From the NCBI GenBank assembly GCA_963725665.1, contig CAVRZA010000001.1:352001-416000 (forward strand): 64,000 bases of DNA, written 5' to 3'. A program made the translations under genes and the position numbers. Shown in pieces: positions 6,196 through 54,615 of this stretch; within the stretch, counting starts at the first letter, position 1; each line of letters starts with the position of its first letter. Under the pieces are notes generated by a model, which made no database searches, was not told the DNA's origin, and worked only from the letters and a program-made list of their open reading frames with translations. The stretch is from an uncultured Actinomycetes bacterium. GTDB taxonomy: Bacteria; Actinomycetota; Thermoleophilia; UBA2241.

Positions 6196-6278
6196 AGCAC
6201 TGAGCCGGGGCGGGTTGGCGCCCGCGGCATCGCCGCGGGCGCCGCCAGGCCGATTGGACCGGGGTCCTCTAGACTCGC

Positions 6279-10331: not shown

Positions 10332-10343
10332 CCGGGGATCCGT

Positions 10344-11354: not shown

Positions 11355-11408
11355 GCGTCTCACCCGGCTCCCCTCTCAGGCTGCTGTCTGGGACCGCCGT
11401 TCACGCCG

Positions 11409-39176: not shown

Positions 39177-39201
39177 CGCCGTCCGTCGCCCAGAAGCAGC
39201 C

Positions 39202-39951
39202 GTGCTCCCCGACCTCTGGGCCTCCGTCTTCGTCGGGGCAACGCGCGTCGAATCGCTCTCGGTGGCGACGGCGCTGCTCGCCTTCGTCGCCGGCCTCGTG
39301 TCTTTCATCTCGCCGTGCGTGCTGCCGCTGCTGCCCGCCTACCTCTCGTACGTCTCGGGTGTGGGCGTCGGGCAGCTCGAAGGCGAGCGCGGCGACGTTC
39401 TCGTCGCCGCGCTCGCCTTCGTCGGGGGGTTCTCGACGGTGTTCGTGCTGTTGGGCGCCGCCGCCGGCGGCATCGGCGGCCTGCTCGTGCGCTTCCGGCC
39501 CGAGCTCACGCTGGCCGCCGGCGTCTTTCTCGTGGTTAGTGGCCTCGTCGTCGCCGGCGTCGTGCGTCTGCCGGGCCTGCATGGCGGCTTCGCGCCGCGC
39601 GCCGGCGGGCTGCCGCGCGCCTTTCTCACGGGCGCGGCCGTCTCCATCGGCTGGACGCCGTGTGTGGGATACGTACTGGGCGGCATCCTCATGCTGGCCG
39701 GCTCGCGGCAGAGCGCCGGCGCCGGCGCGCTCCTGCTGCTCATCTACTCGGCCGGCCTGGGGTTGCCGTTCGTGCTCGCGGCGCTGGCTTGGGGGTGGGT
39801 CTCCGCCCGCACGCGGTGGCTGCGCAGTCACTACCGTCTGGTGCAGACCGTGTCGGGCGCCCTGCTGGCCGCCTTCGGGGTGCTCCTTCTCACCGGCGGC
39901 ATCGATCTGCTCGCCCGTGAGCTGCCGACCTACAGTCCGTTCGGGCTGTAG
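39202..39951 (+). CDS. ccdA: Cytochrome c biogenesis protein CcdA (DsbD transmembrane domain)
   Basis: SFISPCVLPLLPAY, GWTPCVG, YSAGLGLPF. Confidence 0.9.
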   Translation: MLPDLWASVFVGATRVESLSVATALLAFVAGLVSFISPCVLPLLPAYLSYVSGVGVGQLEGERGDVLVAALAFVGGFSTVFVLLGAAAGGIGGLLVRFRPELTLAAGVFLVVSGLVVAGVVRLPGLHGGFAPRAGGLPRAFLTGAAVSIGWTPCVGYVLGGILMLAGSRQSAGAGALLLLIYSAGLGLPFVLAALAWGWVSARTRWLRSHYRLVQTVSGALLAAFGVLLLTGGIDLLARELPTYSPFGL

Positions 39952-40045
39952 CGAGCCGCCTGGCCGCGTCCCGTCTCGAGCCTGAGCGCTTCGAGAAGGC
40001 GTTCGTGCTGCTCGGGCCCGGCCACGGTCACACGCAGGCAGGCTG

Positions 40046-40090
40046 TTGAAAAGGCGACGGACGGTCAGTACTGTACGCCCACCTAGGTGG
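40046..40090 (+). promoter_or_regulatory. Sigma70-type promoter with overlapping palindromes, heading the aminotransferase-AOR-larA-tetR-mttBC cluster
   Basis: TTGAAA (40046-51), 17-nt spacer, TACTGT (40069-74); CAGTACTG and CCACCTAGGTGG palindromes. Confidence 0.6.
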
Positions 40091-40173
40091 ATGACTTTGG
40101 GCGACGCCGCCGCGCGCCGGCCGGATACAGGCCCGGCCGGCGCGCGGCGGCGCTGGGCGAGAACGGAGGAGCC

Positions 40174-41550
40174 ATGACAGGGACCGTGGGCGAGCACGAC
40201 GTTGGCGCTCTCGAGGAGCAGTTCCTCGAGCACCTCTGGCCGCCCTTCACGCAGATGCAGGGCCTCAAGCCGGTTATCATCGAGCGCGGCGAGGGCGCCG
40301 TGGTCTACGACGCGCATGGCAAGCCTTACATCGACGCGTTCGCGAGCCTCTGGACGGTCAACGTGGGGCACGGGCGGCAGGAGATCATCGACGCCGTGGC
40401 TGCCCAGGGCAAGGAGCTCGCCTGTTACCACATGTTCGGCATCGCCAACCCGCCCTCGATCAAGCTGGCGGCCAAGATCGCTGAGCATCTGCCCGGTGAC
40501 CTCAACCACGTCTTCCTCACCCTGGGCGGCGGCGAGGCGGTGGAGACGGCCCTCAAGATCGCGCGCCAGTACTGGCGCAACAGGGGCAAGGGCGGCAAGT
40601 ACATGGTCTTCTACCGCGACCGCGCCTACCACGGCACGACCTTCGGCGTGACGAGCGCGCAGGGTCTGCCGCTCAACCGGCACAAGTTCGAGCCGCTGCT
40701 GCCCGGCTTCGTCAAGCTGGGCGCCCCGTACTGCTACCGCTGCGCCTGGGGCAAGACCTACGGCGAGTGCGCCATCGAGTGCGCAAAGGCCGTGGAGCAG
40801 GAGATTTCCTTCTACGGCGAGGAGAACGTCGGCACGCTACTGGGCGAGACGATGATCGGCACCGGCGGCGTCATCCCGCCGCCCCCGGAGTACTGGCCCC
40901 TGGTGCGCGAGATCTGCGACGCGCACGAGCTGCTGGTCATCAACGACGAGGTCATCACCGGGTTCGGGCGCGGCGGCACCTGGTTCGCATGCACGCAGTT
41001 CGGGAGCAAGCCCGACATGGTGACGATGGCCAAGGGTCTCTCGTCGGGTTACCTCCCTCTCGGCGCCGTCGGGGCCAGCGAAGGGGTGTTCGAGGCCTTC
41101 TTGGGCGAGCCCCTCGAGTTGAAGCAGTTCATGAGCGGTGCCACCTACCAGGGCCACCCGCTCTGCTCCGCCGCCGGCCTCGCCAACCTCGAGATCATCG
41201 AGCGCGAGAACCTGGTCGATCGCTGCCGCGAGCTGGGTCCGTACATGCAGGAGGGGCTGCGCAGCCTGCTCTCGCACGCCATCGTCGGCGATGTGCGCGG
41301 CATCGGCCTCGTGGCTGGCATCGAGTACGTGCAGGACAAGCAGACCAAGGAGTGGTTCCCGCCGGCGATCGGTGCCGCCGGCAAGGTGTTCGCCGAGGCC
41401 TTCCGGCGGGGCGTCTTCGTGCGCCTCCTGGGCGGCGGCAATGTGCACGCTATCGCGCCGCCGTTCATCATCAGTAAGGAGCAGATCGACACCATCGTGA
41501 GCGTGCTCGACGAGTCGATCGGCGTGGTCGAGATGGAGCTGGGCTACTAG
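40174..41550 (+). CDS. Class III PLP-dependent aminotransferase (omega-amine:pyruvate type)
   Basis: SLWTVNVGHG, AYHGTT, DEVITGFGR, TMAKGLSSGYLPLG, TYQGHP. Confidence 0.92.
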   Translation: MTGTVGEHDVGALEEQFLEHLWPPFTQMQGLKPVIIERGEGAVVYDAHGKPYIDAFASLWTVNVGHGRQEIIDAVAAQGKELACYHMFGIANPPSIKLAAKIAEHLPGDLNHVFLTLGGGEAVETALKIARQYWRNRGKGGKYMVFYRDRAYHGTTFGVTSAQGLPLNRHKFEPLLPGFVKLGAPYCYRCAWGKTYGECAIECAKAVEQEISFYGEENVGTLLGETMIGTGGVIPPPPEYWPLVREICDAHELLVINDEVITGFGRGGTWFACTQFGSKPDMVTMAKGLSSGYLPLGAVGASEGVFEAFLGEPLELKQFMSGATYQGHPLCSAAGLANLEIIERENLVDRCRELGPYMQEGLRSLLSHAIVGDVRGIGLVAGIEYVQDKQTKEWFPPAIGAAGKVFAEAFRRGVFVRLLGGGNVHAIAPPFIISKEQIDTIVSVLDESIGVVEMELGY

Positions 41551-41608
41551 CCTCCCTGGGCGGCCAGCTGTCACTCGCGCAGCAGAGCGGAGCAAGAAAG
41601 GAAGAAGG

Positions 41609-43396
41609 ATGGTCCACGTGCTGAGGGTCGACCTGTCGACCCGCACCACTCGTGAGGAGACGCTGCCGGCAGAGCTGACGCGTGACTACATCGGCACGAA
41701 GGGGATCGGCAGCCACCTGCTGCTGCAGGAGGTGGACCCCGGCATCGACCCGCTCGGTCCCGACGCCAAGCTCATCTTCTCGGCCGGCCCCCTCTCGGGG
41801 TCGACCATGCCCGGTACGGACCGCTACGCAGTCTACTTCCTTTCGCCTCTTACGGGAGGTTACGGCGAGGCCTACTCGGGCGGTAAGGTGGCGACGCAGT
41901 TCGCCCGCACCGGCTTCCGTATGGTGGTACTCGAAGGGAAGGCGTCCTCTCCGGTCTTCATCGAGGTCTCCGACGAGAAGGTCGCGATCCACCCGGCGGA
42001 CGATCTCTGGGGACTCGACTGCTACGAGGCCGAGGACCGACTCCTCGAGCGCGTCGGCGTGAGGAACGCCCAGGCCTGCGTGATCGGACCCGCCGGCGAG
42101 AAGCTCGTGCGCTTCGCCTGCATCCAGAACAACCGCACGCACAGCCTCGGGCGCGGCGGATGCGGCGCCGTCATGGGCTCCAAGAACGTCAAGGGGCTCG
42201 TGTTCCACGGCTCGACGAGGCCGGAGGTGGCGCGCCCCGACGAGCTCAAGGCCCTGGTCAAGGAGATGATCGCCAACGGCAAGGACCACCCCAGCGTCGC
42301 GGCCTACAACGCCAAGGGCACGGTGCAGATGGTGCGCCTCACCAACGGGGTCTCGATGTTCCCCACCCGCTACTGGACCAAGGGGCATCTCGACGACTTC
42401 GAGCCGCTCTCAGCCGAGACGATGATGGAGAAGTACAAGGTCGGCAACACGACGTGTCCGCCCTGCTTCATCGCCTGCGGGCACGTCTGCCGGGTGCCAG
42501 ACGGCGAGCTCGCCGGCCTCGAGATCGACGGACCGGAGTACGAGACCATCTTCGCCTTCGGAGGCCTTTGCGAGGTCGTCGACTTCGGCTACGTCATGCT
42601 CTACAACGACATCTGCGATCGCCAGGGCGTCGACACGATGAGCGCCGGCAACCTGTGCGGGCTGGCCATCGAGGCGTCGCGGCGCGGGCTCATCGACGAG
42701 GAGCTCGACTTCGGCGACGCCAAAGGCGTGCAGCGCTTCCTCGAGAAGATGTGCCGCCGCGAGGGCGTCGGCGACCTGTTCGCGGAGGGCATCCTGGCGG
42801 TCCAGAAGGAGCTCGGCCTCGAAAGCGTGGCCGTGCACGTCAAGGGCATGGAGCCGGCGGGCTACGACCCGCGCCGCTCGCGGGGCATGGGCTTAGGCTA
42901 CGTCGTCTCGGCCCGCGGCGCCTGTCACGCGCGGGCGACGTTCATGAAGCCCGAGCTGGCCGGCCTCATCGACATCAACACCACCGTCGGCAAGGGGGCC
43001 ATGTACGTCGACTACGAGGACCGCATGGCGATCCTCGACTGCATGGTCTTCTGCCGCTTCTACCGCGACCTGCTCGAGTGGGAGTTCCTCGCGCGGATCG
43101 TCAACGCCGCGGTGGGCACCGACTACTCCGTCGAGGAGCTGAGAGCCGTCGCCAACCGCATCGTCACCGAGACACACCGCTTCAACGAGCTGCGCGGCAT
43201 CGGTGGGGAGTCAGAGCACCTGCCGGCGTGGATCATCGACAACCCTATCGAGCACCACGACGGTGAGAAGCTGACCATCAGCGAGGAGCAGATGGAGACG
43301 ATGCGCCGCGATTACTATGCGGCGCGCGGCTGGGGCGTCCCCGGGGCTGAGACCCGGGATCGATCGGGCCCGAGAGGGGAGGCGAGACGAGCATGA
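41609..43396 (+). CDS. aor: Aldehyde:ferredoxin oxidoreductase (W/Mo-pterin)
   Basis: IGPAGEKLVRFA, GRGGCGAVMGSKN, CPPCFIACG, GPEYET, AGYDPR, RGACH. Confidence 0.92.
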   Translation: MVHVLRVDLSTRTTREETLPAELTRDYIGTKGIGSHLLLQEVDPGIDPLGPDAKLIFSAGPLSGSTMPGTDRYAVYFLSPLTGGYGEAYSGGKVATQFARTGFRMVVLEGKASSPVFIEVSDEKVAIHPADDLWGLDCYEAEDRLLERVGVRNAQACVIGPAGEKLVRFACIQNNRTHSLGRGGCGAVMGSKNVKGLVFHGSTRPEVARPDELKALVKEMIANGKDHPSVAAYNAKGTVQMVRLTNGVSMFPTRYWTKGHLDDFEPLSAETMMEKYKVGNTTCPPCFIACGHVCRVPDGELAGLEIDGPEYETIFAFGGLCEVVDFGYVMLYNDICDRQGVDTMSAGNLCGLAIEASRRGLIDEELDFGDAKGVQRFLEKMCRREGVGDLFAEGILAVQKELGLESVAVHVKGMEPAGYDPRRSRGMGLGYVVSARGACHARATFMKPELAGLIDINTTVGKGAMYVDYEDRMAILDCMVFCRFYRDLLEWEFLARIVNAAVGTDYSVEELRAVANRIVTETHRFNELRGIGGESEHLPAWIIDNPIEHHDGEKLTISEEQMETMRRDYYAARGWGVPGAETRDRSGPRGEARRA

Positions 43397-44760
43397 GCGG
43401 CGGAACCGGCGGCGGCCTCGTCCGGCTCGCGCTGCCCTACGGGCGCGGCGAGCAGCCGGTCGCCCTGCTCGATGACCGGCTGCTCGCCGTCGTGACGGGG
43501 GTCGCCGGCGCGGGCCAGGACGGCCACGCGGCCGGTGCACCCGACGAGCGCGCCGAGGTCGCTCGCGCGTTGCGCGAGCCGCTCGGCGCGCCGCCGCTCG
43601 CGACGCTGGCTCGGGAGGCGGCGTCAGCCGCCATCGTCGTGAGCGACGTCACGCGGCCCTGTCCGACCGCCCGCTTCTTGCCCGCTCTGCTCGATGAGCT
43701 CGCCGCCGTCGGCGACGAGGCGATCACGGTCATCTTCGCGCTCGGCAGCCATCGGCCGCACACGCGAGAAGAGCAGGAGGAGCTGGTCGGGCGCGAAGTG
43801 CTCGCGCGGGCGCGCGTGCTCGACCTCGACGCCGGCGATTGCACCTACGTGGGCACGACGAGCAGGGGCACGCGCGTGGAGGTCTTCCGTCCGTTCTTGG
43901 AGGCGGAGTTCAAGATCTGCACAGGCAACGTGGAATACCACTACTTCGCCGGCTTCAGCGGCGGGGTCAAAGCGGTCGTGCCCGGTCTCTGCTCGCGGGC
44001 GACGATCCAGGCGAACCACAGCATGATGCTCGCGCCCGCCGCGCGTGCCGGCGTCATCGAGGGCAATCCCGTGCGCGAGGACATCGACGAAGCCGGGGAG
44101 CTTCTCGGCGTCGGCTTTGCGTTCAACGTCGTCCTCGACGGGCGCAAGCGCATCGTGCGCGCCTTCGCCGGGCACCCGACCACGGCCTTCCGGGCCGCCG
44201 CCGCCTTCTACGACGAGCGCTTTGGCGTCACTGTGCCGGCGGCCGCCGACGTCGTGCTCGCCTCTCCCGGCGGCCGCCCCAAGGATATCAACCTCTACCA
44301 GGCGCAGAAGACCCTCGACAACGTGCGCGGCGCGGTGCGCAACGGCGGCGCCGTCATCCTGGTCGCCGAGTGCCCCGAGGGCTTCGGCGAGGCGACGTTC
44401 GAGCGCTGGATGCGCGAGATGACAACGCCGCAGGCGCTGGTCGAGCGCATCCAGCGCGAGTTCGTGCTGGGAGGCCACAAGGCGGCCGCCATCGCCGGCC
44501 TCTTGCGCACCGTCGACGTGTACCTCGTGTCGGCCTTCCCCGACGAGACGGTACGCCGGATGGGAATGACGCCGATGCCCCGCGCGCAGGCGGCGGTCGA
44601 GGCTGCGGCGGCCCGCTACGGGCCCGCCGCCACTTTCCTCGTCGTGCCGGACGGTACCAGGGTGAGCACCAGCGCCCAGGCGGGCAAGATACCGGCCCGG
44701 GCCTCGTCTTCTCCCGGCGCTGCCGCCTCCGAGTCGGTCGAGGCGGGAGCGGGGTCGTAG
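43393..44760 (+). CDS. larA: Nickel-pincer-dependent lactate racemase family (LarA) 2-hydroxyacid racemase/epimerase
   Basis: SDVTRP, ALGSHR, HYFAGFSGGVK, ANH, GNPVRED, DINLYQAQK, AECPEGFG. Confidence 0.88.
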   Translation: MSGGTGGGLVRLALPYGRGEQPVALLDDRLLAVVTGVAGAGQDGHAAGAPDERAEVARALREPLGAPPLATLAREAASAAIVVSDVTRPCPTARFLPALLDELAAVGDEAITVIFALGSHRPHTREEQEELVGREVLARARVLDLDAGDCTYVGTTSRGTRVEVFRPFLEAEFKICTGNVEYHYFAGFSGGVKAVVPGLCSRATIQANHSMMLAPAARAGVIEGNPVREDIDEAGELLGVGFAFNVVLDGRKRIVRAFAGHPTTAFRAAAAFYDERFGVTVPAAADVVLASPGGRPKDINLYQAQKTLDNVRGAVRNGGAVILVAECPEGFGEATFERWMREMTTPQALVERIQREFVLGGHKAAAIAGLLRTVDVYLVSAFPDETVRRMGMTPMPRAQAAVEAAAARYGPAATFLVVPDGTRVSTSAQAGKIPARASSSPGAAASESVEAGAGS

Positions 44761-44889
44761 TGCCCGGGCAGCATAGCGGAGGGCGCCATGGCGGTGAGCG
44801 GCGAGCGAGACGGTGTCGCACGGGCCAGCGAATGAGACGTCTGGCCGCTCAGGGCCGGAGGTCCGACTGGGCGGTGTTCCGCCCGCGCG

Positions 44890-45591
44890 ATGGGAGATGA
44901 GCCTCAAACGATGACGGCGATCAGAAAGTTGGAGAGGGAGCGCGGCGTCAGGGTGCCGTTCGACGACCCGTTCACCAGTCTGCCCGAGACGGCGCAGAGG
45001 ATCCTCGCCGCCGCCTCGAAGCTGCTGGCGAAGCGCGGCTACGAGGCGGTGACGCTCGAGAACGTGGCCCGCGAGGCCGGCGTCAACAAGGCGACCATCC
45101 GCTACAATTTCGGCAACAAGGCCGGGCTGATGACCGCCATCGTCGACGGGCTCATCCACGACGAGTGCCTGCGCATGGCCGCCGACCTCGACACGGTCGA
45201 CCAGGACGACCGGTTGGCCGCGGCGATGGAGGGGATCGGCGGCATGATCGTGAGCGCCGACTCCTTCAAGGGCTTCTTCGAGGTGCTGCCGCACGCCTTC
45301 CGCGACGAGGACTTGCGGGTGCGCCTCTTCGCCCTCTATCGCTGGTGGTACGGGTTGAACCTCAAGTGGCTGGGCTTGCCCGACGAGATCGACGAGGACA
45401 CCAACTACTACATCGTAGGGTTGGCGGAGCTCATCGCCGCCATCCCCGACGGACTCTCGATCCAGGCAGGCCTCGACCCGGGACATTTCGACGTCGCGCG
45501 CCCTCTGGCGGCTCTCGAGCTCCTGCTGCGCAACTCGATGAAGGAGCTGCGAGCCCTGGCCGAGGAGCGCGGCGGACGATCGCCACGGTGA
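44890..45591 (+). CDS. TetR/AcrR family transcriptional regulator
   Basis: RILAAA...GYEAVTLENVAREAGVNKATIRYNFGNK. Confidence 0.9.
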   Translation: MGDEPQTMTAIRKLERERGVRVPFDDPFTSLPETAQRILAAASKLLAKRGYEAVTLENVAREAGVNKATIRYNFGNKAGLMTAIVDGLIHDECLRMAADLDTVDQDDRLAAAMEGIGGMIVSADSFKGFFEVLPHAFRDEDLRVRLFALYRWWYGLNLKWLGLPDEIDEDTNYYIVGLAELIAAIPDGLSIQAGLDPGHFDVARPLAALELLLRNSMKELRALAEERGGRSPR

Positions 45592-45642
45592 CCGGCGAGC
45601 CTCATCACCGCCCACCCTTCCCACCGCGCAAGGAGGTGCCGA

Positions 45643-47130
45643 GTGAGACGAAACCAACACGCCGGGCGCAGGGGTAGCGCCGGCGCGAGCCTCAACCTGC
45701 TGAGCGACGACGACCTCCACGACATCCACCTCGCCACGCTCGAGGTGTTGGGGAGGACCGGCGTCTGGGTGGAGGATGAGGATGCGCGTCGCGTCTTCGC
45801 CAGCGCCGGGGCAGACGTCGACGAGGCCACCGGGGTGGTGAAGATCCCCTCCTACGTGGTGGAGGAGGCGGTACGCTCGGCGCCGCCGAAGTTCGTCGCC
45901 GCCGGGCGCGACCCCGCCAGGGATTTCGTCCTCGAGGCCGACCGCGTCGGCTTCACCAACTTCGGCGAGGGCGTGAAGCTCGTCGACCCGTTCACCGGGG
46001 AGCTGCGCCTGCCGGTCAAACGGGACGTGGCCGACACGGCCCGCGTCGTCGACTACCTCTCTGACGTCGACGTCTACGAGCGGGCCATCACGGCCGAGGA
46101 TGTCCCTCCTGAGAGCGCGCCGCTCCACCAGGCCGAGGCCTGGATGAGCAACACCACGAAGCCGGGCTTCATGGGCCCCATGAACGGCTACTTGCTTGAA
46201 CGGATCGCACAGATGGCCGAGGCCGTGCAGGGAGGCCCCGAGAAGCTACGTCGACGCCCGCTCGTCACCTTCGTGACGTGCCCCGTGAGCCCCTTGAAGC
46301 TCATCCGGGACTGCTGCGAGATCATCATGGGCGCGGCCAGACGTGGTCTCGGGGTGAACATCCTCTCGATGGCCATGGCAGGCGGATCCTCACCGGTCAC
46401 CCTGGCGGGGACCCTCGTCACCCACAACGCCGAGGTCCTGAGCGGCATCACGCTCAACCAGCTCACGAAGAAAGGGTCGCCGGTCGTCTACGGCAGCTCC
46501 ACCACGGCGATGGACCTGCGTTTCGCGGCCGCCTCGGTGGGCTCGCCGGAGTGCGCGCTGATCGGCGCCGCCGTCGCCCAACTGGCGCGCTTCTACCTGC
46601 TCCCCAGCTGGGTCGCCGGTGCGTAGGGGGACACCAAAGTGGTCGATGCCCAGAGCGGGCACGAGAAGACCCTGACCGCCTTGCTGCCAGCGTTGGCAGG
46701 CGCCAACCTGATCTACGGTCTGGGGATGATCGAGTCGGGCATGACCTTCGATTTCGGGCAGCTCGTCATGGACAACGAGTTCGCGCGCATGATCAAGTTC
46801 GCCGTCGGCGGCATCCCGGTGAACGACGAGACGCTGGCTGTGGACGTCATCGCGGAGGTGGGCGCCTTTGGGGACTTCCTCGGCCACGAGCACACGATGA
46901 AGCACATGCGCGAGCAGTCCCCGTCGGCGCTCCTCGACCGGCGCGTGCGCGAGGACTGGGAGGCCTCGGGGTCGACGACCCTCTACGACCGGGCGACCGC
47001 CAAGGCGCGTGAGATCCTCGAAAGCTATCGGCCCGAGCCGCTGCCCGAGAGCGTGGCCGCCGAGATGCGCGACATCATCGCCGACGCCGAGAAGGACCTG
47101 GGCGTGACGACTACCGTGGGGAGGGTGTGA
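45643..47130 (+). CDS. mttB: Pyrrolysine-containing trimethylamine:corrinoid methyltransferase (495 aa, amber codon 328 at 46624-46626)
   Basis: ORFs 45643..46626 and 46639..47130 share a frame and are separated only by TAG. Read-through gives SWVAGA-O-GDTKVVDAQSGHEK, matching the MttB pyrrolysine site. Also SMAMAGGSSPVTLAGTLVTHNAEVL. Confidence 0.93.
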
Positions 47131-47780
47131 TGTCCACCGCAGACTACCAGCGCCTCTCCGAGCTCATCATCGCCGGCGAGATGGAGGGCGCCAAGGCGCT
47201 CACCGAGCAGCTCCTCGCCCAGGGTCTTCCCGGGCGCGAGGTCCTCGATGGCGGCCTTCTGCCCGGCATGGAGGTCGTGGGCGCGCGCATGAAGGCCGGC
47301 GAGTGCTTCATCCCCGAGGTGCTCCTCTCTGCACGCACCATGCAGGGCTGCCTGGACCTCATCAAGCCCCACCTGGCGGCCGGCGACTCAGGCTCGGCCG
47401 GTACGGTGCTCATCGGCACCGTCGAGGGCGACGTGCACGACATCGGCAAGAACCTAGTCGCCATGCTGCTCGAGGGGGCCGGCTTCTCGGTCGTCAACTT
47501 GGGGGCCCAGATCAGCCCCGCCGCCTTCCTTGCCGCCGTTCGCGAGCACTCACCGCAGATCCTCGGCATGAGCGGTCTTCTGACCACCACCATCCCCAAG
47601 ATGGCCGACACCATCAAGCTGCTCAAGGACGAGGGCTTACGAGACGCCGTCAAGGTGATGGTCGGCGGCGCCCCGGTCACGCAGCGCTTCGCCGATGAGA
47701 TCGGCGCCGACGCCTACGGCGCCAACGCCGCCGCCGCCGTGGAGAAGGCCAAGGCGTTGCTGGGGACCCAGAGGGCGTAG
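47130..47780 (+). CDS. mttC: Methyltransferase cognate corrinoid protein
   Basis: FIPEVL cap domain, DVHDIGKNLV B12-binding motif, SGLLTTT, VMVGGAP; TGATG coupling to mttB. Confidence 0.92.
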   Translation: MSTADYQRLSELIIAGEMEGAKALTEQLLAQGLPGREVLDGGLLPGMEVVGARMKAGECFIPEVLLSARTMQGCLDLIKPHLAAGDSGSAGTVLIGTVEGDVHDIGKNLVAMLLEGAGFSVVNLGAQISPAAFLAAVREHSPQILGMSGLLTTTIPKMADTIKLLKDEGLRDAVKVMVGGAPVTQRFADEIGADAYGANAAAAVEKAKALLGTQRA

Positions 47781-47814
47781 GCGGGGGGCTCAGCCCCGGG
47801 AGCTTGCGAGGCGA

Positions 47815-47862
47815 CGGGGCGGGGGCGCTTCTCCCGCGCGCGGGAGAAGCGCCCCCGCCCCG
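47815..47862. repeat. Perfect 48-bp GC palindrome after mttC
   Basis: cggggcgggggcgcttctcccgcg / cgcgggagaagcgcccccgccccg. Confidence 0.85.
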
Positions 47863-47921
47863 CTCCGTGCCCCTCGCCGGCGGCTCTCACTCCTTGCCCT
47901 CCACCCGGTATGCTGGTCGGC

Positions 47922-50840
47922 ATGAGTGCCGTCGCGCTGCCCGATCCGAGCCCGGCCGGCCTCGCCGCCGCGCGCGAGCTTGCGCGGCGCGTGGCCGGGA
48001 GCGTCGACTGGCGACCGCTGACGCGCTGGCTCTACTCCACGGACTCCTCCATCTACCGGGTAGTGCCCGACGCCGTGCTCGTCGCCCGCTCGGTCGACGA
48101 CCTGGCGCTGGCTGCGGCGACGGCCGCCAAGCACGGCGTGCCGCTGGTAGCTCGCGGCGCCGCCACGAGCACCGCGGGGCAGGCCATCGGCGCGGGCATC
48201 GTCATCGACTGCTTCCACCTCGATCGCATCCTCGCCATCGACCCCGAGCGGCGCGTGGCTCGCGTCGAGCCCGGCGTCGTGCAGGCCTCCCTCAACGCTG
48301 CGGCGGCGCGGCACGGTCTCGAGTTCGGCCCCGACACCTCGACCGTCGACCAGGCCACCATCGGCGGCATGGTCGGCAACAACTCGTCGGGCTCGCGCTC
48401 GGTCGTCTACGGCGAGACGGTCGACAAGACGCTGCGCCTGTGTGCGGTGCTGGCCGACGGCAGCGAGGCCACCTTCGGGCCGTGTGAGGGAGACGACCTC
48501 GCCACGGGCCTCGACGGCCCGCGGGCGACGGCGCTAGCCAAGGGGCTTGGCGCGATGCGCGCCCGCTCGCGGTCGCGCATCGCCTCCAGCTTCCCGGAGA
48601 CGCGCCGCCGCTGCTCCGGCTACAGCCTTGACCGCCTCATCGAGCCGCGCCCGAACCTGGCTCGCCTACTGGCCGGCTCTGAGGGGACGCTCGCGCTGTT
48701 CACGGAGATCGAGGTGGAGCTCGACCGCCTGCCGGCGCTGCGTCTGACGGCCGGCCTCTCGTTCCCCACGCTGCGAGCGGCGCTCGACGCGAACCTGCAG
48801 ATCATGACCACCGGTCCCTCGGCCGTGGAGCTCCTCGACCTGGGGCCGCTGCGCCGCGCCCCCATGTTGCGTGGCTACCGTTTGATCGCTCCCCTGCTGG
48901 AGAGCGACGACGAGGCGGTGCTCCTCGTCGAGTACCAGGGGAGCGAGGATGAGGCGCGCGCCGGCCTCGAGCGCCTGCGTTCCGTCGCGGGGGGTCTGGG
49001 AGCGCGCCTGGTCGTCTACTTCGCCGACCCGCGCGCGGTGGCCCAAGCCTGGGAGCTGCGGCGGGCCGTGCTGCCGCTCCTCATGGGTGCGCCCGGCCGG
49101 CGGCGCCCGGCCGGCTTCGTCGAGGACACCGCCGTGGCTCCCGAGAAGCTGGGCGACTTCCTCGACGACTTTCGCCACCTCCTCGCACGGCGCGGCGTCG
49201 AGGCCTCGTTCACCGGGCACGCCTCGGCGGGCTGTCTGCACGTCCGGCCGCTGCTCGACCTCAAGACGGCCGAGGGCGTCGGAGAGCTGGAGGGGATCGC
49301 GCACGCGGTGGGCAAGCTCGTCCTGGAGTATCACGGCTCCCTGTCGGGCGAGCACGGCGACGGCATCGCGCGCTCCTGGTTCAACCCGCAGCTCTTCGGC
49401 CCCGAGCTCTACGCGGAGATGGTCGCCCTCAAGGAGCTCTTCGACCCCGACCGGCTGCTGGCCCCGGGGCGCGTGGTGGAGGGATCGCGGCCGGCCGAGC
49501 ACCTGCGCCTCGGGCCCTCCTACCGGGCACGGGCGCCGTGGCAGCCGCGCCTCGACCACGGCGTCGACGGCGGCTTCGACCTCGCCGTCGAGAGATGCTT
49601 CGGCGCCGGCCTCTGCAAGAAGCTGTCGGGCACCATGTGCCCTCCTGCCGCCGTCACGCGTGACGAGTCTCTCTCCACCCGCGCGCGGGCCAACGTGCTG
49701 CAGGCCCTCCTCGCCGGTGCGTTGCCGGTCGACACGCTGACCAGTGACGAGGTGCGCGAGGTCCTGGGCACCTGTCTCGCCTGTAAGGCGTGCAAGAACG
49801 AGTGCCCGGCCGGGGTGGACATGGCCGCGCTCAAAGCAGAGTGGCTGGCGGAGGTGCGCAGGCGGGAGGGCGTTCCCTTGCTCGCCCGCGGCATCGCCGA
49901 CTTCAGGCTGCTGGCGCGGCTGGCGGCGCCGGTCGCGCCGCTGGTCTCGGCGCTGGGCGCGACCGGCGCCGCCCGCGCCGTGCTCGCTCGCGCCGGGGTG
50001 GCGCGTGAGCGGCCGCTGCCGGTGATCGCGCGGCGGCCGCTCACGCGCCGCGTGCCCGGTCTTCCCGACGGGGATCGCTCCCGTGCGCGCGGCCGTCGGC
50101 GCGTCTACGCGACGAGCCCGACGGCGGCCCCCGAGGTCGTGCTCATGGCCGATTGCTTCGTCGAGCACCAGGAACCCGAGATCGGCGAGGCCTTCGTCCG
50201 TCTGCTCGGGGCGGCCGGCGTGCCGGTCGCCGCCGTCGACGCCGGCTGCTGCGGTCGGACGATGTTGTCGGCGGGGCGGCTCGAGCGGGCGCGCGGTTCA
50301 GCGCGGCGCTGCGCCGCCCGGCTGGCGGAGCACGCCGGAGCAGGGCGCACCGTCGCCTTCGTCGAGCCGAGCTGCCTCTCCATGGCGGTCGACGACTGGG
50401 CGCGCCTTCTACCCGGCGACGGCGACGCCGCCGCCGTCGCCGCCGCGGCGCGCCCGGCGTTGTCGGTGATCGCCGACCTGGCGGCCGCCGGCCGCCTCAC
50501 CTTCGCGGCCGGCGGCCGCGCGCTGCTGCACGCGCACTGCCACGAGAAGGCGCTGTACGGCAGCGACGAGACCGAGCGCGCCCTGCGCGCCGTGCCCGGT
50601 CTGGACCTCGACGTGCTCGACGCCGGCTGCTGTGGCATGTCGGGGGTCTTCGGCTACGAGGCGGAGCACTACGAGCTGAGTGTCGCCATCGCCGAGGATA
50701 GGCTGCTCCCGGCGGTTCGCGCGGCGGGGCCGGAGGTCGCAGTGCTGGCAACCGGCACCTCGTGCCGGGCACAGATCGGCGACCTCGGGCCCCGCCGCGC
50801 CGAGCACCCACTCGTGTTCCTCGCACGGCGCCTGCGTTGA
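47922..50840 (+). CDS. FAD-binding and Fe-S/CCG-domain oxidoreductase (GlcD-GlcF fusion, YdiJ-like 2-hydroxyacid dehydrogenase)
   Basis: ATIGGMVGNNSSG, GSEGTL, HASAGCLH, SGEHGDG, CLACKACKNECP, two CCG motifs. Confidence 0.9.
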   Translation: MSAVALPDPSPAGLAAARELARRVAGSVDWRPLTRWLYSTDSSIYRVVPDAVLVARSVDDLALAAATAAKHGVPLVARGAATSTAGQAIGAGIVIDCFHLDRILAIDPERRVARVEPGVVQASLNAAAARHGLEFGPDTSTVDQATIGGMVGNNSSGSRSVVYGETVDKTLRLCAVLADGSEATFGPCEGDDLATGLDGPRATALAKGLGAMRARSRSRIASSFPETRRRCSGYSLDRLIEPRPNLARLLAGSEGTLALFTEIEVELDRLPALRLTAGLSFPTLRAALDANLQIMTTGPSAVELLDLGPLRRAPMLRGYRLIAPLLESDDEAVLLVEYQGSEDEARAGLERLRSVAGGLGARLVVYFADPRAVAQAWELRRAVLPLLMGAPGRRRPAGFVEDTAVAPEKLGDFLDDFRHLLARRGVEASFTGHASAGCLHVRPLLDLKTAEGVGELEGIAHAVGKLVLEYHGSLSGEHGDGIARSWFNPQLFGPELYAEMVALKELFDPDRLLAPGRVVEGSRPAEHLRLGPSYRARAPWQPRLDHGVDGGFDLAVERCFGAGLCKKLSGTMCPPAAVTRDESLSTRARANVLQALLAGALPVDTLTSDEVREVLGTCLACKACKNECPAGVDMAALKAEWLAEVRRREGVPLLARGIADFRLLARLAAPVAPLVSALGATGAARAVLARAGVARERPLPVIARRPLTRRVPGLPDGDRSRARGRRRVYATSPTAAPEVVLMADCFVEHQEPEIGEAFVRLLGAAGVPVAAVDAGCCGRTMLSAGRLERARGSARRCAARLAEHAGAGRTVAFVEPSCLSMAVDDWARLLPGDGDAAAVAAAARPALSVIADLAAAGRLTFAAGGRALLHAHCHEKALYGSDETERALRAVPGLDLDVLDAGCCGMSGVFGYEAEHYELSVAIAEDRLLPAVRAAGPEVAVLATGTSCRAQIGDLGPRRAEHPLVFLARRLR

Positions 50841-51305
50841 CGCGACTCGCAGCTTGCCGTCGCGTGCGCTCCCGATTCGTCCTCGACCCGCCGATACTCG
50901 ACCCGCCTACCCCCGATGCGCCACCCACGCGCCGATCGAGACCAGGGGGCTCCGAGGAGTGTAGTGTTCCGGGACGTTGTGCAGGAGCGATCCGAGATCA
51001 GGCTAGGACCGTCGTCGTCCACGTAGGGTTGCCCTGGGCCTTGACACGACTCGAGCACCACGAATCCGCCGGCGCCGTTGAATCCGCGGCGAAGAGGCGT
51101 CAACAGGGCAAGTGATCGCCCACTGGTCGCCCGCCAACCTGCCTGCGCGAGGACTACCGGGATCGTCGACCGTCCGGCCGACCGAAACGCCCGGCGATGC
51201 TACGACGCCCGCGAGCTTGACGGATGTAGCCGTCGGCGAGAGCGTGTTGGATGCTTGCCTTTCATGCTTGCTGTGGGCGCACGGCGGACGATGGAGGCCA
51301 TGACC

Positions 51306-52580
51306 ATGAGTGGCAAAGAGATTCGGCTTGGCAAGTACTCACTCGGTGTGGGCGACCGTTTTGGCCATCAGGGCTGTGCGCAGCTGCGCGCCTTTCAGGA
51401 CGCGGCTGCGCACGGCGTGGATGTGGTTCCCTCCTGGAACAAGTCGAACCGTGAGCACGAGACTCTTCGATCGGGACCGGTGAGTGTGCGCAGGGAGGCC
51501 GACGACGCCGTACGCGTCATGGGGTGGGGTGGGCCGTACTTCGTGGACGCCGACCACATCGATCTGGAGACTGTGGACCGCTATCTCGCGCCGTGCGATT
51601 TCTTCACTCTGGATGTGGCGCGCTTGATCGGACGTCGGCCGGAGGCCGGCGCTGTGGGTGCCTTCTTGGCCAGACACGGCGACCTAATGACCGGCATCAC
51701 GATACCAGGCCTCGCCGACCCCGTGCGCATGACGATGGAATTGGCAGCATGGGCCGCATCTCAGTACCTGGCGGCCGTCGCCGAGGCCGGGCGCATATAC
51801 CGTCACGTGGAAGCCGCGAAGGGCGCGGGGACGTTCGTCACCGAGGTGTCGTTGGACGAGACGGAGACACCGCAGAAACCAGCCGAGCTGCTGCTCATCC
51901 TGGCTGCGATCGCCGACGAAGGCATCCCGATACAGACGATCGCGCCGAGGTTTGGCGGACGCTTCAACAAAGGAGTCGACTACGTGGGCGACGCCGCCGC
52001 ATTCGAGGCAGAATTCGCAGACGATGTCGCCGTGGTCACTCACGCCGCCTCAGCCTACGGACTGCCCGAGAACCTCAAACTCAGCGTGCACTCCGGCAGC
52101 GACAAGTTCTCGATCTTCCCGGCCATCCGCCGCGTGCTCAGGAGGTCGGGCGCGGGCGTGCACGTCAAGACGGCTGGCACTACGTGGCTCGAGGAGATCA
52201 TCGGACTTGCGGAGGCGGGCGACGAGGGGCTTGCACTGGCGAAGGACGTCTATGCCGCTGCCCTTGACCGCCGGGAGGAACTCTGCGCCGGCTATGCCAC
52301 CGTCATCGACATCGATCCCGCGCGGCTGCCGTCCCAAAGCGAGGTTCGGTCTTGGAGCTCAGAGCAGTTCGTCGCGGCAGTTCGGCACGACGAGGCCGAT
52401 CCCGCCTACAATGCGAACGTACGTCAACTTCTGCATGTCGGCTACAAGATCGCTGCTTCTATGGGTTCTCGATACACGGATCTGCTCGAGTCTTCCGAAG
52501 ATTCCATTGCGAGGAACGTGACCCAGAACCTCTACGAGCGGCATATAGTGCCACTGTTCTTGCGGGCACAAGCGCCCTGA
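51306..52580 (+). CDS. uxaE: Tagaturonate/fructuronate epimerase family protein
   Basis: SLGVGDRF, WNKSNREH, FVDADHI, FNKGVDY, KLSVHSGSDKFS, HVKTAGTTWLEE; RBS GGAGG. Confidence 0.88.
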   Translation: MSGKEIRLGKYSLGVGDRFGHQGCAQLRAFQDAAAHGVDVVPSWNKSNREHETLRSGPVSVRREADDAVRVMGWGGPYFVDADHIDLETVDRYLAPCDFFTLDVARLIGRRPEAGAVGAFLARHGDLMTGITIPGLADPVRMTMELAAWAASQYLAAVAEAGRIYRHVEAAKGAGTFVTEVSLDETETPQKPAELLLILAAIADEGIPIQTIAPRFGGRFNKGVDYVGDAAAFEAEFADDVAVVTHAASAYGLPENLKLSVHSGSDKFSIFPAIRRVLRRSGAGVHVKTAGTTWLEEIIGLAEAGDEGLALAKDVYAAALDRREELCAGYATVIDIDPARLPSQSEVRSWSSEQFVAAVRHDEADPAYNANVRQLLHVGYKIAASMGSRYTDLLESSEDSIARNVTQNLYERHIVPLFLRAQAP

Positions 52581-52590
52581 AGAGACAGCA

Positions 52591-52755
52591 CAGCCTGCTC
52601 ATTGCCGACGGCAGCGGTTGCTCGAAGGCCACGAGGGTCGGTTGCCAGTGGTGCGCCGCGGCGCTGGCATCGCAGACGCACAGATCGGCGAGCGCCGCGA
52701 GCTTGCGCACGACCGGTGTCTCGGCCCGATCTCCGGGTGAGAGCTCGAGCTTGTT
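52591..52755 (-). pseudogene. Degenerate fragment of an archaeal-type phosphoglycerate kinase
   Basis: VVRKLAALADLCVCDASAAAHHWQPTLVAFEQPLPSAMSRL resembles the PGK motif KLA.LAD..VNDAFAAAHRSQPSLVGF...P...G.L; no recognisable start or remainder. Confidence 0.6.
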
Positions 52756-54559: not shown

Positions 54560-54615
54560 TTGACGAAGAGCTCCTAGAGGCGCCGCCGCCCAAGGAGTGC
54601 GCGCCGCCGAAGGTC

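What the first reader, a model, noticed from the sequence alone, without database searches (positions are those of the whole stretch)
40174..50840. Unusual cluster: aminotransferase, AOR, LarA, TetR, Pyl-MttB, MttC, then a FAD/Fe-S dehydrogenase
Seen: seven co-oriented genes with short gaps or overlaps. Established: MttB/MttC remove N-methyl groups onto a corrinoid, class III aminotransferases turn amines into aldehydes, AOR oxidises aldehydes to acids, LarA racemises 2-hydroxyacids, and GlcD/F-type enzymes oxidise them. Inference: a possibly undescribed anaerobic route for an N-methylated (hydroxy)amine, namely demethylate, transaminate, oxidise, racemise, oxidise to a 2-oxoacid for nearby KorABCD. 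If so, this Pyl enzyme may take a larger amine than trimethylamine. I do not recognise this gene combination, but cannot search to confirm novelty.
Basis: partly seen in the sequence, partly recalled or inferred. Interest (0 to 1): 0.75.

Follow-up and report, generated by a model that had tools for sequence, protein, structure and literature searches.

The report
Pyrrolysine methyltransferase beside amine-to-malate genes
In an uncultured soil actinobacterium, a pyrrolysine-containing methylamine demethylase lies in an inserted gene block next to enzymes that probably turn a carnitine-like amine into malate, hinting that such demethylases may act on amines larger than trimethylamine.

Summary
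The seven co-oriented genes are real, and the MttB amber codon sits exactly on the pyrrolysine site. They are not one pathway.

**Backbone genes.** The FAD/Fe-S dehydrogenase and the Kor genes belong to a conserved backbone. In 6 of 8 relatives examined, the DsbD gene directly abuts the FAD/Fe-S gene.

**Insert.** The six genes AT-AOR-LarA-TetR-MttB-MttC (40174-47780) are a lineage-specific insert, bracketed by two strong hairpins.

**AT module in relatives.** Across 44 Thermoleophilia loci, the aminotransferase is followed by:
- an aldehyde oxidiser: accessory GAPDH-II+PGK in 27 of 36 loci, AOR in 2 of 36;
- then a D-malate enzyme: malate-racemase-like LarA in 20 of 31 loci, tartrate/D-malate dehydrogenase-like in 3 of 31.

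It is usually preceded by a non-Pyl MttB (22 of 37). In some genomes a TetR-MtbB-MttB(Pyl)-MttC cassette lies exactly between that gene and the aminotransferase.

**Best reading (inferred).** Stepwise corrinoid-dependent demethylation of a carnitine-type amine gives 4-amino-3-hydroxybutyrate. This is then converted to malate semialdehyde, D-malate and L-malate.

**Supporting imbalance.** In 41 family genomes, Pyl-MtbB occurs in 38 (226 copies) but Pyl-MtmB in only 3.

**Rival.** The MttB is an ordinary TMA enzyme that is merely adjacent. Its sequence is canonical.

**Prior reports.** The scan and a 2023 paper already reported pyrrolysine genes in Actinobacteriota. The gene link described here was not found in print.

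The parts
40105..40152 (+). Terminator-like hairpin (20-bp perfect stem, 8-nt loop) between the DsbD stop (39951) and the aminotransferase start. It marks the left edge of the insert.
   Evidence: (I22) and 56: -79.1 kcal/mol for 40040-40173, z -5.2, 0 of 200 shuffles fold as well. Sequence read.
40174..41550 (+). Class III omega-aminotransferase. Proposed role: primary amine (4-amino-3-hydroxybutyrate type) to aldehyde.
   Evidence: PF00202, E 7e-87. No NCBIfam equivalog reached. Best solved relatives are omega-transaminases, putrescine aminotransferase and GABA transaminase. Orthologs at 63-81% identity occur in 44 Thermoleophilia/Actinomycetota loci.
41609..43396 (+). Tungsten/molybdenum aldehyde:ferredoxin oxidoreductase family protein. 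It occupies the position held by accessory GAPDH-II + PGK in most relatives.
   Evidence: AFOR_N + AFOR_C. Overlaps larA by 4 nt. AT-AOR pairs at 63-65% identity are seen in L085/L145, L102/L141 and L144. GAPOR model scores only 42 bits against a cut-off of 1300.
43393..44760 (+). LarA-superfamily 2-hydroxyacid racemase, closest to malate racemase (MAR2/LarAH6).
   Evidence: Lar_N + LarA_C. NCBIfam LarAH6 malate racemase 477 bits (cut-off 500), versus lactate racemase 325. PDB Mar2 6d6z E 1e-105, versus lactate racemases E 1e-62 or weaker. larC is present in the genome.
44890..45591 (+). TetR-family regulator that travels with the Pyl methyltransferase cassette.
   Evidence: TetR_N E 7e-15; weak BetI-type C-terminal match (E 5.6e-5, below cut-off). 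Orthologs at 70-74% identity head TetR-MtbB-MttB-MttC cassettes in relatives.
45643..47130 (+). Pyrrolysine-type MttB methyltransferase, read through one TAG.
   Evidence: TIGR02369 737 bits (cut-off 525). G110, M249 and Y364 of 7XCL are kept; T111 is Glu.
46624..46626 (+). In-frame amber codon at the pyrrolysine position.
   Evidence: gcg tag ggg. Aligns to X334 of 7xcl.
47127..47780 (+). Cognate corrinoid protein MttC.
   Evidence: B12-binding_2 + B12-binding. GDVHDIG motif. 4-nt overlap with mttB.
47815..47862 (+). Perfect 48-nt palindrome (terminator-like) between mttC and the FAD/Fe-S gene. It marks the right edge of the insert.
   Evidence: (I5) and 56: -94.1 kcal/mol for 47781-47909, z -4.5, 0 of 200 shuffles fold as well.
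47910..50840 (+). YdiJ-like FAD/Fe-S D-2-hydroxyacid dehydrogenase. Judged a backbone neighbour, not part of the module.
   Evidence: Domains. YdiJ model 477 bits (cut-off 1350). At least one match in 20 of 24 family genomes, on other contigs than AT/MttB. Abuts DsbD in 6 of 8 relatives.
51078..52580 (+). Distant UxaE-like (tagaturonate epimerase family) protein. It is a second lineage-specific addition and a possible accessory of the AT-AOR module.
   Evidence: PF16257 E 8e-47. PDB UxaE E 6e-27. No match in any of the 8 backbone loci of relatives. A 65%-identical copy lies between AT and AOR in L102/L141.

Best explanation
The seven genes are two things. The FAD/Fe-S dehydrogenase, with the Kor genes after it, is an old backbone gene of this bacterial family. 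The six genes before it (40174-47780) are a block inserted between dsbD and that dehydrogenase.

The block joins two modules that recur together in this family of uncultured Thermoleophilia.

**Module 1: AT-AOR-LarA.**
1. The aminotransferase converts a primary amine of the type H2N-CH2-CH(OH)-CH2-X to its aldehyde. The best candidate amine is 4-amino-3-hydroxybutyrate, the carbon skeleton of carnitine.
2. AOR oxidises the aldehyde to the 2-hydroxy acid (D-malate). Relatives use an accessory GAPDH-II + PGK pair here, which would also yield ATP.
3. A malate-racemase-like LarA converts D-malate to L-malate.

**Module 2: TetR-MttB(Pyl)-MttC.** This is a corrinoid methyltransferase cassette.

**Most likely overall route.** The two modules serve one oxygen-independent pathway that strips the N-methyl groups from a carnitine-type amine.
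- A non-Pyl MttB takes the quaternary amine.
- The Pyl MttB takes the tertiary amine.
- A Pyl MtbB takes the secondary amine.

In this genome the first and third enzymes are encoded elsewhere. Module 1 then handles the demethylated primary amine.

**Shown here:** the gene families, the Pyl codon and decoding genes, the insertion, the flanking hairpins and the recurrent synteny.

**Inferred:** every substrate, and the coupling of the two modules.
For: **1. Insertion.**
- DsbD abuts the FAD/Fe-S gene in 6 of 8 relatives. In the other 2 the gap is at most 2.4 kb.
- None of the 8 has a match to any of the six block genes between DsbD and the FAD/Fe-S gene.
- Strong hairpins flank the block. The internal spacers have none.

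**2. Conserved AT module, counted over 44 AT-ortholog loci.**
- Of 36 loci with at least 1.5 kb downstream: 27 have GAPDH-II, 2 have AOR, 7 have neither.
- Of 31 loci with at least 5 kb downstream: 20 have LarA, 3 have a TIGR02089 tartrate/D-malate dehydrogenase-like gene, 8 have neither.
- Of 37 loci with at least 1.6 kb upstream: 22 have a non-Pyl MttB directly upstream.

**3. Two unrelated aldehyde oxidisers share one slot.**
- The GAPDH-II + PGK pair is accessory. The 4 relatives checked keep a normal gap-pgk locus elsewhere.
- The own genome has no GAPDH-II match above 100 bits.

**4. Two unrelated D-malate enzymes share the last slot.**
- LarA is closest to Mar2.
- The alternative passes the tartrate dehydrogenase model (472.8 bits; cut-off 470.4).
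- Genus g2 has that gene and no LarA ortholog in 0 of 5 genomes.
- The own genome has LarA and no TTC match over the cut-off.

**5. Published precedent.** The carnitine skeleton gives malic semialdehyde and then specifically D-malate in Acinetobacter baumannii (PMC11353897, abstract read).

**6. The Pyl cassette sits beside the AT module in two different ways.**
- Between the non-Pyl MttB and AT in L100, L105/L057 and L059. L089 shows the same flanks without the cassette.
- After LarA in L063, L070/L123, L095 and the window.
- In L058 and L061 a Pyl MttB directly precedes AT.

**7. Phylogeny.** In a quick tree, 7 of the 8 AT-linked Pyl MttBs fall in one clade of 8 rows (SH-aLRT 91). This clade is separate from a second clade (99) that holds other paralogs of the same genomes.

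**8. Family-wide imbalance over 41 genomes.** Pyl MtbB occurs in 38 genomes, 226 matches in all. Pyl MtmB occurs in 3.

**9. Phyletic pattern.** All 17 family genomes with the AT ortholog also have Pyl MttB.
Against: - The window's MttB passes the TMA-methyltransferase equivalog (737 bits; cut-off 525). It keeps G110, M249, Pyl and Y364. No pocket difference from other bacterial Pyl MttBs was found.
- The window lacks a neighbouring MtbB and non-Pyl MttB. The best non-Pyl ortholog lies on another contig (C2:319465-320886, 55% identity).
- Only 4 of the 44 AT loci hold a Pyl MttB within 10 kb. With 5 or more Pyl MttB genes per genome, some adjacency arises by chance.
- The usual partner of the AT module is a non-Pyl MttB. 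By known chemistry that enzyme removes only one methyl group.
- All evidence comes from one bacterial family, so the loci are not independent.
- The accessory GAPDH-II keeps Arg167/Arg168, the site that binds the phosphate of GAP. Only His194 is changed, to Gln. A phosphorylated aldehyde is therefore not excluded.
- LarA falls just under the malate-racemase cut-off (477 bits; cut-off 500).
- A TetR gene between larA and mttB suggests separate regulation of the two modules.
Confidence: 0.45

Rival explanations
1. Ordinary trimethylamine module next to an unrelated amine module. TetR-MttB-MttC demethylates free TMA only, as in methanogens. AT-AOR-LarA independently degrades an omega-amino hydroxy acid. 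The two lie together because this family gathers amine-catabolic genes in islands, or by chance.
For: - MttB passes TIGR02369 and keeps all named catalytic residues.
- Cassettes of the same ortholog group also occur without the AT nearby: 14 of the 20 loci fetched around the best MttB hits have no AT.
- Only 4 of 44 AT loci hold a Pyl MttB.
- A published study treats Actinobacteriota Pyl mttB/mtbB as TMA/DMA genes (PMC10805028, passages read).
- The TetR gene splits the block into two likely regulatory units.
Against: - The cassette has been placed next to the AT module in two different configurations, once exactly between the non-Pyl MttB and AT.
- The AT-linked MttBs form their own lineage, apart from other paralogs of the same genomes.
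- If only TMA and DMA were substrates, 38 of 41 genomes would make monomethylamine with no Pyl MtmB to use it.
Confidence: 0.35
2. Demethylation, transamination, AOR, LarA acting as a lactate-type racemase, then the FAD/Fe-S dehydrogenase making a 2-oxoacid for KorABC(D).
For: - Co-orientation and short gaps.
- The FAD/Fe-S protein is YdiJ-like, a D-2-hydroxyacid dehydrogenase type that could in principle oxidise D-malate.
Against: - The FAD/Fe-S gene has at least one match in 20 of 24 family genomes, lies on other contigs than AT/MttB, and is present in G007, which has no MttB match at that threshold.
- It abuts DsbD in 6 of 8 relatives, and Kor follows it in 3 of 8 without any of the six block genes.
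- A perfect 48-nt palindrome separates it from mttC.
- LarA is malate-racemase-like, not lactate-racemase-like.
Confidence: 0.05
3. Same logic but a different skeleton. The aminotransferase makes glyceraldehyde-3-phosphate or a sulfonate analogue (sulfolactaldehyde) from a 3-amino-2-hydroxypropyl phosphate or sulfonate. LarA then racemises 3-phosphoglycerate or sulfolactate.
For: - The accessory GAPDH-II and PGK of relatives pass their own family models: NF003251 400 bits (cut-off 185), PF00162 344-360 bits.
- GAPDH-II keeps the GAP-phosphate arginines.
Against: - Both alternative end enzymes point to a C4 dicarboxylate, namely malate racemase and tartrate/D-malate dehydrogenase.
- I know of no natural N-methylated 3-amino-2-hydroxypropyl phosphate (recalled, not searched).
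- 3-Phosphoglycerate made from D-GAP would need no racemase.
Confidence: 0.12

Closest known systems
Methanosarcina barkeri MttB/MttC (PDB 7XCL, 7XCM, 7XCN): pyrrolysine-dependent trimethylamine:corrinoid methyltransferase
   Same: - E 1e-123 over residues 3-484.
- TAG on Pyl334.
- G110, M249 and Y364 are kept.
- The adjacent corrinoid protein has a DxHxxG motif.
   Different: - Bacterial, in a 70% G+C genome.
- Thr111 is Glu.
- Headed by a TetR gene.
- Lies beside an aminotransferase, AOR and LarA instead of mtb/mtm genes.
- Substrate untested.
Non-Pyl MttB-superfamily quaternary-amine demethylases of Eubacterium limosum (MtcB carnitine, MtyB gamma-butyrobetaine, MtpB proline betaine) and MtgB (PDB 2QNE)
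   Same: - Same superfamily.
- Carnitine demethylation to norcarnitine is established for MtcB (PMC8604678 abstract in a search listing; details recalled).
- Relatives of the window place a non-Pyl MttB directly before the aminotransferase.
   Different: - Those systems stop after one demethylation.
- Here a route on to the primary amine and to malate is proposed.
- The window itself has no non-Pyl MttB.
[quoted passage not shown]
   Same: - Same proposed intermediates: malate semialdehyde, then D-malate (PMC11353897, abstract read).
- Genus g2 relatives end the module with a tartrate/D-malate dehydrogenase-like gene.
   Different: - That pathway is oxygen-dependent and releases TMA.
- Here no oxygenase is seen in the locus (CntAB was not searched for).
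- Nitrogen would leave by transamination, after the methyl groups have gone to a corrinoid.
Malate racemase Mar2 / LarAH6 (PDB 6D6Z, 7S91) of the LarA superfamily
   Same: - Best solved relative, E 1e-105.
- Best NCBIfam model.
- Malate racemases form the largest LarA group (PMC11770544, passages read).
   Different: - Scores 477 bits, under the cut-off of 500.
- A context next to AOR and an aminotransferase was not found in the papers searched.
GABA shunt (GABA transaminase + succinate semialdehyde dehydrogenase)
   Same: Works like it: omega-amino acid to semialdehyde to dicarboxylate. The aminotransferase's solved relatives include GABA transaminases.
   Different: - The oxidiser is a ferredoxin-linked AOR (or phosphorylating GAPDH-II + PGK in relatives), not an aldehyde dehydrogenase.
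- A racemase follows, implying a chiral hydroxy acid.

Membership tests
Pyl-dependent trimethylamine methyltransferase MttB (TIGR02369 / PF06253) | Single in-frame UAG at the position of Pyl334 | tested here: met
   TAG at 46624-46626 aligns to X334 of 7xcl.
Pyl-dependent trimethylamine methyltransferase MttB (TIGR02369 / PF06253) | Whole-protein score over the curated equivalog cut-off | tested here: met
   737.4 bits; cut-off 525.
Pyl-dependent trimethylamine methyltransferase MttB (TIGR02369 / PF06253) | Active-site residues named for 7XCL (Gly110-Thr111 cis peptide, Met249, Tyr364) | tested here: inconclusive
   G110, M249 and Y364 are kept. T111 is Glu, as in most bacterial homologs aligned.
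Pyl-dependent trimethylamine methyltransferase MttB (TIGR02369 / PF06253) | Genome encodes pyrrolysine decoding (pylS, pylT) and synthesis genes | tested here: met
   pylS over its cut-off, pylD over its cut-off, tRNA-Pyl(cta) beside pylD. pylB and pylC were not searched here.
Pyl-dependent trimethylamine methyltransferase MttB (TIGR02369 / PF06253) | Trimethylamine is the methyl donor | not testable with these tools
   Needs an enzyme assay. Pocket modelling was not possible because the tools give no coordinates.
Cognate corrinoid protein (MttC type) | B12-binding cap + Rossmann domains with a DxHxxG motif, gene adjacent to the methyltransferase | tested here: met
   PF02607 + PF02310. GDVHDIG. 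4-nt overlap with mttB.
LarA superfamily, malate racemase group (LarAH6/MAR2) | Lar_N and LarA_C domains | tested here: met
LarA superfamily, malate racemase group (LarAH6/MAR2) | Score over the LarAH6 equivalog cut-off | tested here: not met
   477.4 bits; cut-off 500. It is still the best model, ahead of lactate racemase at 325. Mar2 is the best PDB hit.
LarA superfamily, malate racemase group (LarAH6/MAR2) | Nickel-pincer cofactor synthesis genes in the genome | tested here: inconclusive
   larC (PF01969) found at C6:389461-390687. larB and larE were not searched.
Aldehyde:ferredoxin oxidoreductase family | AFOR_N plus AFOR_C domains | tested here: met
   245 and 341 bits. No subfamily assignment: AOR PRK09849 181 bits (cut-off 868), GAPOR 42 bits (cut-off 1300).
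YdiJ-type D-2-hydroxyglutarate dehydrogenase | FAD-binding + FAD-oxidase C + Fe-S/CCG architecture and equivalog score | tested here: not met
   The architecture is present, but the score is 477 bits against a cut-off of 1350. Best described as YdiJ-like only.
Acinetobacter-type carnitine degradation operon | CntAB Rieske oxygenase with malic semialdehyde dehydrogenase and D-malate dehydrogenase | not tested
   No search for CntAB was run. The likeness is in the intermediates only.

The most novel reading that the evidence does not exclude
Pyrrolysine enzymes of this Thermoleophilia family are not confined to tri- and dimethylamine. The cassette MttB and MtbB would demethylate substituted amines: norcarnitine to N-methyl-4-amino-3-hydroxybutyrate, and that to 4-amino-3-hydroxybutyrate.

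Together with a non-Pyl MttB and the AT / aldehyde-oxidiser / D-malate module, this would give a complete, oxygen-independent breakdown of carnitine to malate that releases no TMA. In relatives it would also gain ATP at the aldehyde step, through a recruited GAPDH-II + PGK pair.

The many Pyl MtbB and MttB paralogs per genome would then be a family of substrate-specialised demethylases.
Probability: 0.3. Interest if true: 0.85.

Novelty: new variant of a known kind. Interest (0 to 1): 0.62.

Why it matters
Pyrrolysine is known from only three enzyme families, each assigned one small substrate: mono-, di- or trimethylamine. A soil and peat bacterial lineage carries many Pyl MttB and MtbB paralogs per genome but almost never MtmB. 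Some of those paralogs sit in operons with an aminotransferase and enzymes that lead to D-malate. This makes the question of whether Pyl enzymes have other substrates directly testable, with named candidates.

The result would also affect how TMA and methane precursors are budgeted in wetlands. Complete demethylation of carnitine-type amines would consume them without releasing TMA.

Separately, the swap of AOR for a GAPDH-II + PGK pair, and of LarA for a D-malate dehydrogenase, at fixed positions is a clear case of non-homologous replacement within one pathway.

Tried and rejected
- **RNA evidence.** No RNA holder was listed for window 40100-50000.
- **Promoter and terminator scan of 39000-53500.** It found 0 promoter-like sites. 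It found 6 terminator-like sites, against 3.6 +/- 2.1 in shuffles, so it was not informative. The two flanking hairpins came from the repeat search and folding instead.
- **Flanking repeats.** No convincing direct repeats flank the insert.
- **LarA + FAD/Fe-S as a lactate-utilisation pair.** Dropped, because LarA is malate-racemase-like and the dehydrogenase is a backbone gene.
- **AOR as a GAPOR.** Dropped: 42 bits against a cut-off of 1300.
- **AT + AOR oxidising monomethylamine via formaldehyde.** Dropped, because it gives no role to LarA or the D-malate dehydrogenase-like gene.
- **AT-gap-pgk of relatives as housekeeping glycolysis.** Dropped, because the 4 relatives checked keep a separate type I gap-pgk locus.
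- **The sixth 'TAG' MttB match (C1:36714).** It is covered by a stop-free 476-aa ORF. I therefore count 5 Pyl-type MttB genes in the genome.
- **GAPDH-II phosphate-site check.** Inconclusive: Arg167/Arg168 are kept and His194 is Gln.
- **Pocket comparison.** Limited to the five residues named in PMC9842639. The paper's supplementary alignment was not opened.
- **Tree.** The careful search did not finish, so the quick tree is reported.
- **Literature searches.**
  - 'Thermoleophilia' + 'pyrrolysine': 1 irrelevant paper.
  - 'norcarnitine': 6 papers hold the term and 5 were listed. Judged from titles and abstract openings only, none appears to concern further demethylation.
  - MttB with LarA, malate racemase, AOR or RBG-16-64-13: no paper links them.

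Full report
**What is there.**
- a class III aminotransferase (AT);
- an aldehyde:ferredoxin oxidoreductase (AOR);
- a LarA homolog;
- a TetR regulator;
- MttB in two pieces;
- a corrinoid protein, MttC;
- a 976-aa FAD/Fe-S protein.

The two MttB pieces are one frame interrupted by a single TAG at 46624-46626. That codon aligns with the pyrrolysine of M. barkeri MttB (E 1e-123). The read-through protein passes the NCBIfam equivalog for Pyl-type TMA methyltransferase (737 bits; cut-off 525). The genome has pylS, pylD and a tRNA-Pyl(CUA).

**The organism.**
- The nearest named relatives of the AT gene are uncultured Thermoleophilia/Actinomycetota MAGs.
- The genome holds 31 MTTB-family matches. 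Five are Pyl-type; the sixth 'TAG' match is really a stop-free ORF.
- It also holds 8 Pyl MtbB genes, 1 Pyl MtmB and 12 AOR-family loci.
- It also encodes complex I, a bc1-type complex and a cytochrome oxidase subunit, so it is probably not a strict anaerobe.
- Earlier agents of this scan noted the Pyl genes of this genome.
- Ellenbogen et al. 2023 reported Actinobacteriota MAGs expressing Pyl mttB and mtbB in a thawing peatland and took them to be TMA/DMA genes (PMC10805028, passages read).

**The seven genes are not one unit.**
- I fetched the loci around the orthologs of the FAD/Fe-S gene in 8 family genomes. All share the window's backbone: QRPT-like, TPR, Rrf2, epimerase, thioredoxin, DsbD, FAD/Fe-S, then response regulator, rhomboid, PHP and DAGK. 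KorABC follows the FAD/Fe-S gene in 3 of the 8.
- DsbD abuts the FAD/Fe-S gene in 6 of 8. In the other two the gap is at most 2.4 kb. None of the 8 has a match to AT, AOR, LarA, TetR, MttB or MttC there.
- The FAD/Fe-S gene has at least one match in 20 of 24 family genomes. It lies on other contigs than AT/MttB. It is present in G007, which has no MttB match at that threshold.
- In the window, the six-gene block is bracketed by a 20-bp hairpin (40105-40152) and a perfect 48-nt palindrome (47815-47862). Their regions fold far better than shuffles (z -5.2 and -4.5). The spacers inside the block have no such structure.
- The block is therefore an insert, and the FAD/Fe-S and Kor genes are neighbours by accident of insertion.
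- The UxaE-like gene at 51078-52580 is a second addition, absent from all 8 backbone loci.

**The AT-AOR-LarA part is a conserved module with interchangeable parts.** A scan of one genome per species found 50 loci. Of these, 44 hold an AT ortholog at 63-81% identity, nearly all titled Thermoleophilia, Actinomycetes or Actinomycetota; one short contig is titled Deltaproteobacteria. Counting only loci with enough flanking DNA:
- The gene after AT is an archaeal-type GAPDH-II followed by a PGK in 27 of 36, an AOR in 2 of 36, and neither in 7.
- Further downstream lies a LarA ortholog in 20 of 31, a tartrate/D-malate dehydrogenase-like gene in 3 of 31, and neither in 8.
- A non-Pyl MttB lies directly upstream in 22 of 37.

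The GAPDH-II + PGK pair is accessory. The 4 relatives checked also have a normal type I gap-pgk locus. The window's genome has no GAPDH-II at all. AT-AOR pairs like the window's occur in three other genomes (L085/L145, L102/L141, L144).

Two unrelated ways of oxidising an aldehyde share one slot. This indicates that the slot's job is to oxidise the aldehyde the aminotransferase makes.

**What the aldehyde probably is.**
- The LarA is much closer to malate racemase Mar2 (357 bits) than to lactate racemases (214 bits or less). It nearly reaches the LarAH6 malate-racemase model (477 bits; cut-off 500).
- Where LarA is missing, as in genus g2 (0 of 5 genomes), the gene after PGK passes the tartrate dehydrogenase model, the family of decarboxylating D-malate dehydrogenases (472.8 bits; cut-off 470.4).
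- The window's genome has LarA and no such dehydrogenase.
- Two unrelated D-malate enzymes in the last slot point to D-malate as the product. That implies malate semialdehyde as the aldehyde and 4-amino-3-hydroxybutyrate as the amine.
- The AT's solved relatives are omega-transaminases, including GABA transaminases.
- This amine is the carbon skeleton of carnitine. In A. baumannii, carnitine yields malic semialdehyde and then specifically D-malate (PMC11353897, abstract).
- Malate semialdehyde also resembles GAP, with a carboxylate in place of the phosphate ester. That would explain recruitment of a GAPDH and a PGK. This last point is my inference.
- GAPDH-II keeps the two arginines that bind the phosphate of GAP and changes only His194 to Gln. 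A phosphorylated substrate therefore cannot be excluded.

**How the Pyl cassette relates to it.** In relatives the window's TetR and MttB orthologs belong to a cassette TetR-MtbB(Pyl)-MttB(Pyl)-MttC. The cassette lies next to the AT module in two different ways:
- Between the non-Pyl MttB and AT, in L100, L105/L057 and L059. L089 has the same flanks, including the D-malate dehydrogenase-like gene, but no cassette.
- After LarA, in L063, L070/L123, L095 and, without MtbB, in the window.

In two further genomes a Pyl MttB directly precedes AT (L058, L061).

The order in the first type is non-Pyl MttB, MtbB and MttB, AT, aldehyde oxidiser, D-malate enzyme. This is the gene set expected if a quaternary amine is demethylated three times and then transaminated.

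In a quick tree, 7 of the 8 AT-linked Pyl MttBs fall in one clade of 8 rows (SH-aLRT 91). That clade is separate from a well-supported clade holding other paralogs of the same genomes. The window's copy pairs with L054 outside it, on weakly resolved branches.

Across 41 family genomes, Pyl MtbB is found in 38, with 226 matches in all. Pyl MtmB is found in only 3. If these enzymes used only TMA and DMA, nearly all genomes would end at monomethylamine.

All 17 family genomes with the AT ortholog also have Pyl MttB. Of the 7 without it, 3 have no Pyl-type MttB match.

**What speaks against coupling.**
- The window's MttB looks canonical. It keeps G110, M249 and Y364. Its Glu at position 111 is shared by most bacterial homologs.
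- Other paralogs of the family do replace the 'invariant' G110 (FAEG, FDEG, FSEG), but not this one.
- Only 4 of 44 AT loci carry a Pyl MttB within 10 kb.
- The window has neither MtbB nor a non-Pyl MttB nearby.
- A TetR gene splits the block into two likely regulatory units.
- All loci come from one family.
- No expression data could be obtained.

I therefore put the coupled-pathway reading at about 0.45 and the 'ordinary TMA cassette next door' reading at about 0.35.

**Novelty.** Pyl mttB in this phylum is already in print. The families are all known. I found no paper linking MttB-superfamily genes with LarA, malate racemase or AOR. Judged from titles and abstract openings only, none of the 5 listed 'norcarnitine' papers (6 hold the term) appears to concern further demethylation of norcarnitine. 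The searched library does not cover most subscription journals.

The finding is best described as a new variant of known kinds. It is a modular 'methylated amine to malate' locus with non-homologous replacements at two steps. It also gives a concrete, testable candidate for a non-methylamine substrate of a pyrrolysine enzyme.

Noticed in passing
Family-wide (41 genomes of the window's family; own genome C3:245990-247345 is the Pyl mtmB): Pyl MtbB occurs in 38 of 41 genomes (226 matches at E <= 1e-100, up to 11 per genome). Pyl MtmB occurs in only 3 of 41. The rest have only non-Pyl MtmB homologs or none.
   Followed up: partly
Own genome C2:361193-362677, C2:287857-289323, C1:21688-23157; L064 (G013): Several Pyl-type MttB paralogs replace Gly110, which PMC9842639 reports as 100% conserved. 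They read FAEG, FDEG or FSEG; others keep the glycine but read FGEA instead of FGxG. This may indicate divergent active sites in paralogs other than the window's.
   Followed up: no
Own genome C11:228084-233382 (L081:8084-13382): A 686-aa AOR overlaps by 4 nt a non-Pyl MttB, which is followed by an aromatic-amino-acid-lyase family gene. This is another AOR/MttB pairing, possibly for a betaine of an aromatic amino acid.
   Followed up: no
Own genome C6:441945-454061 (L080): The AOR paralog closest to the window's (62% identity) sits next to alanine dehydrogenase. That fits pyruvate-dependent transamination. Nearby are a PucR regulator, a creatininase-family gene and a non-Pyl MttB.
   Followed up: no
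window 47910-56008 and L132-L134: The YdiJ-like FAD/Fe-S dehydrogenase is directly followed by 2-oxoacid:ferredoxin oxidoreductase genes in 3 of 8 relatives. This may form a D-2-hydroxyglutarate to 2-oxoglutarate to succinyl-CoA pair.
   Followed up: partly
window 5896-8012, minus strand: Two adjacent ORFs match consecutive parts of DUF2252: profile positions 1-149 and 179-309. This looks like a frameshifted or split gene.
   Followed up: no
window 8943-12899, minus strand: GatZ/KbaZ-like, PfkB kinase and GH4 glycosidase genes lie in a row. This is a tagatose-type sugar locus.
   Followed up: no
L146 (G014:C1:205500-225400): The same module (SBP, S15 hydrolase, non-Pyl MttB..., GAPDH-II, PGK, LarA) carries a different aminotransferase, only 31% identical, in the AT slot. 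This is a third non-homologous or paralogous replacement.
   Followed up: no
Own genome, many loci: TAG is a common ordinary stop codon in this genome: many well-supported ORFs end in TAG. Pyrrolysine insertion must therefore compete with termination.
   Followed up: no
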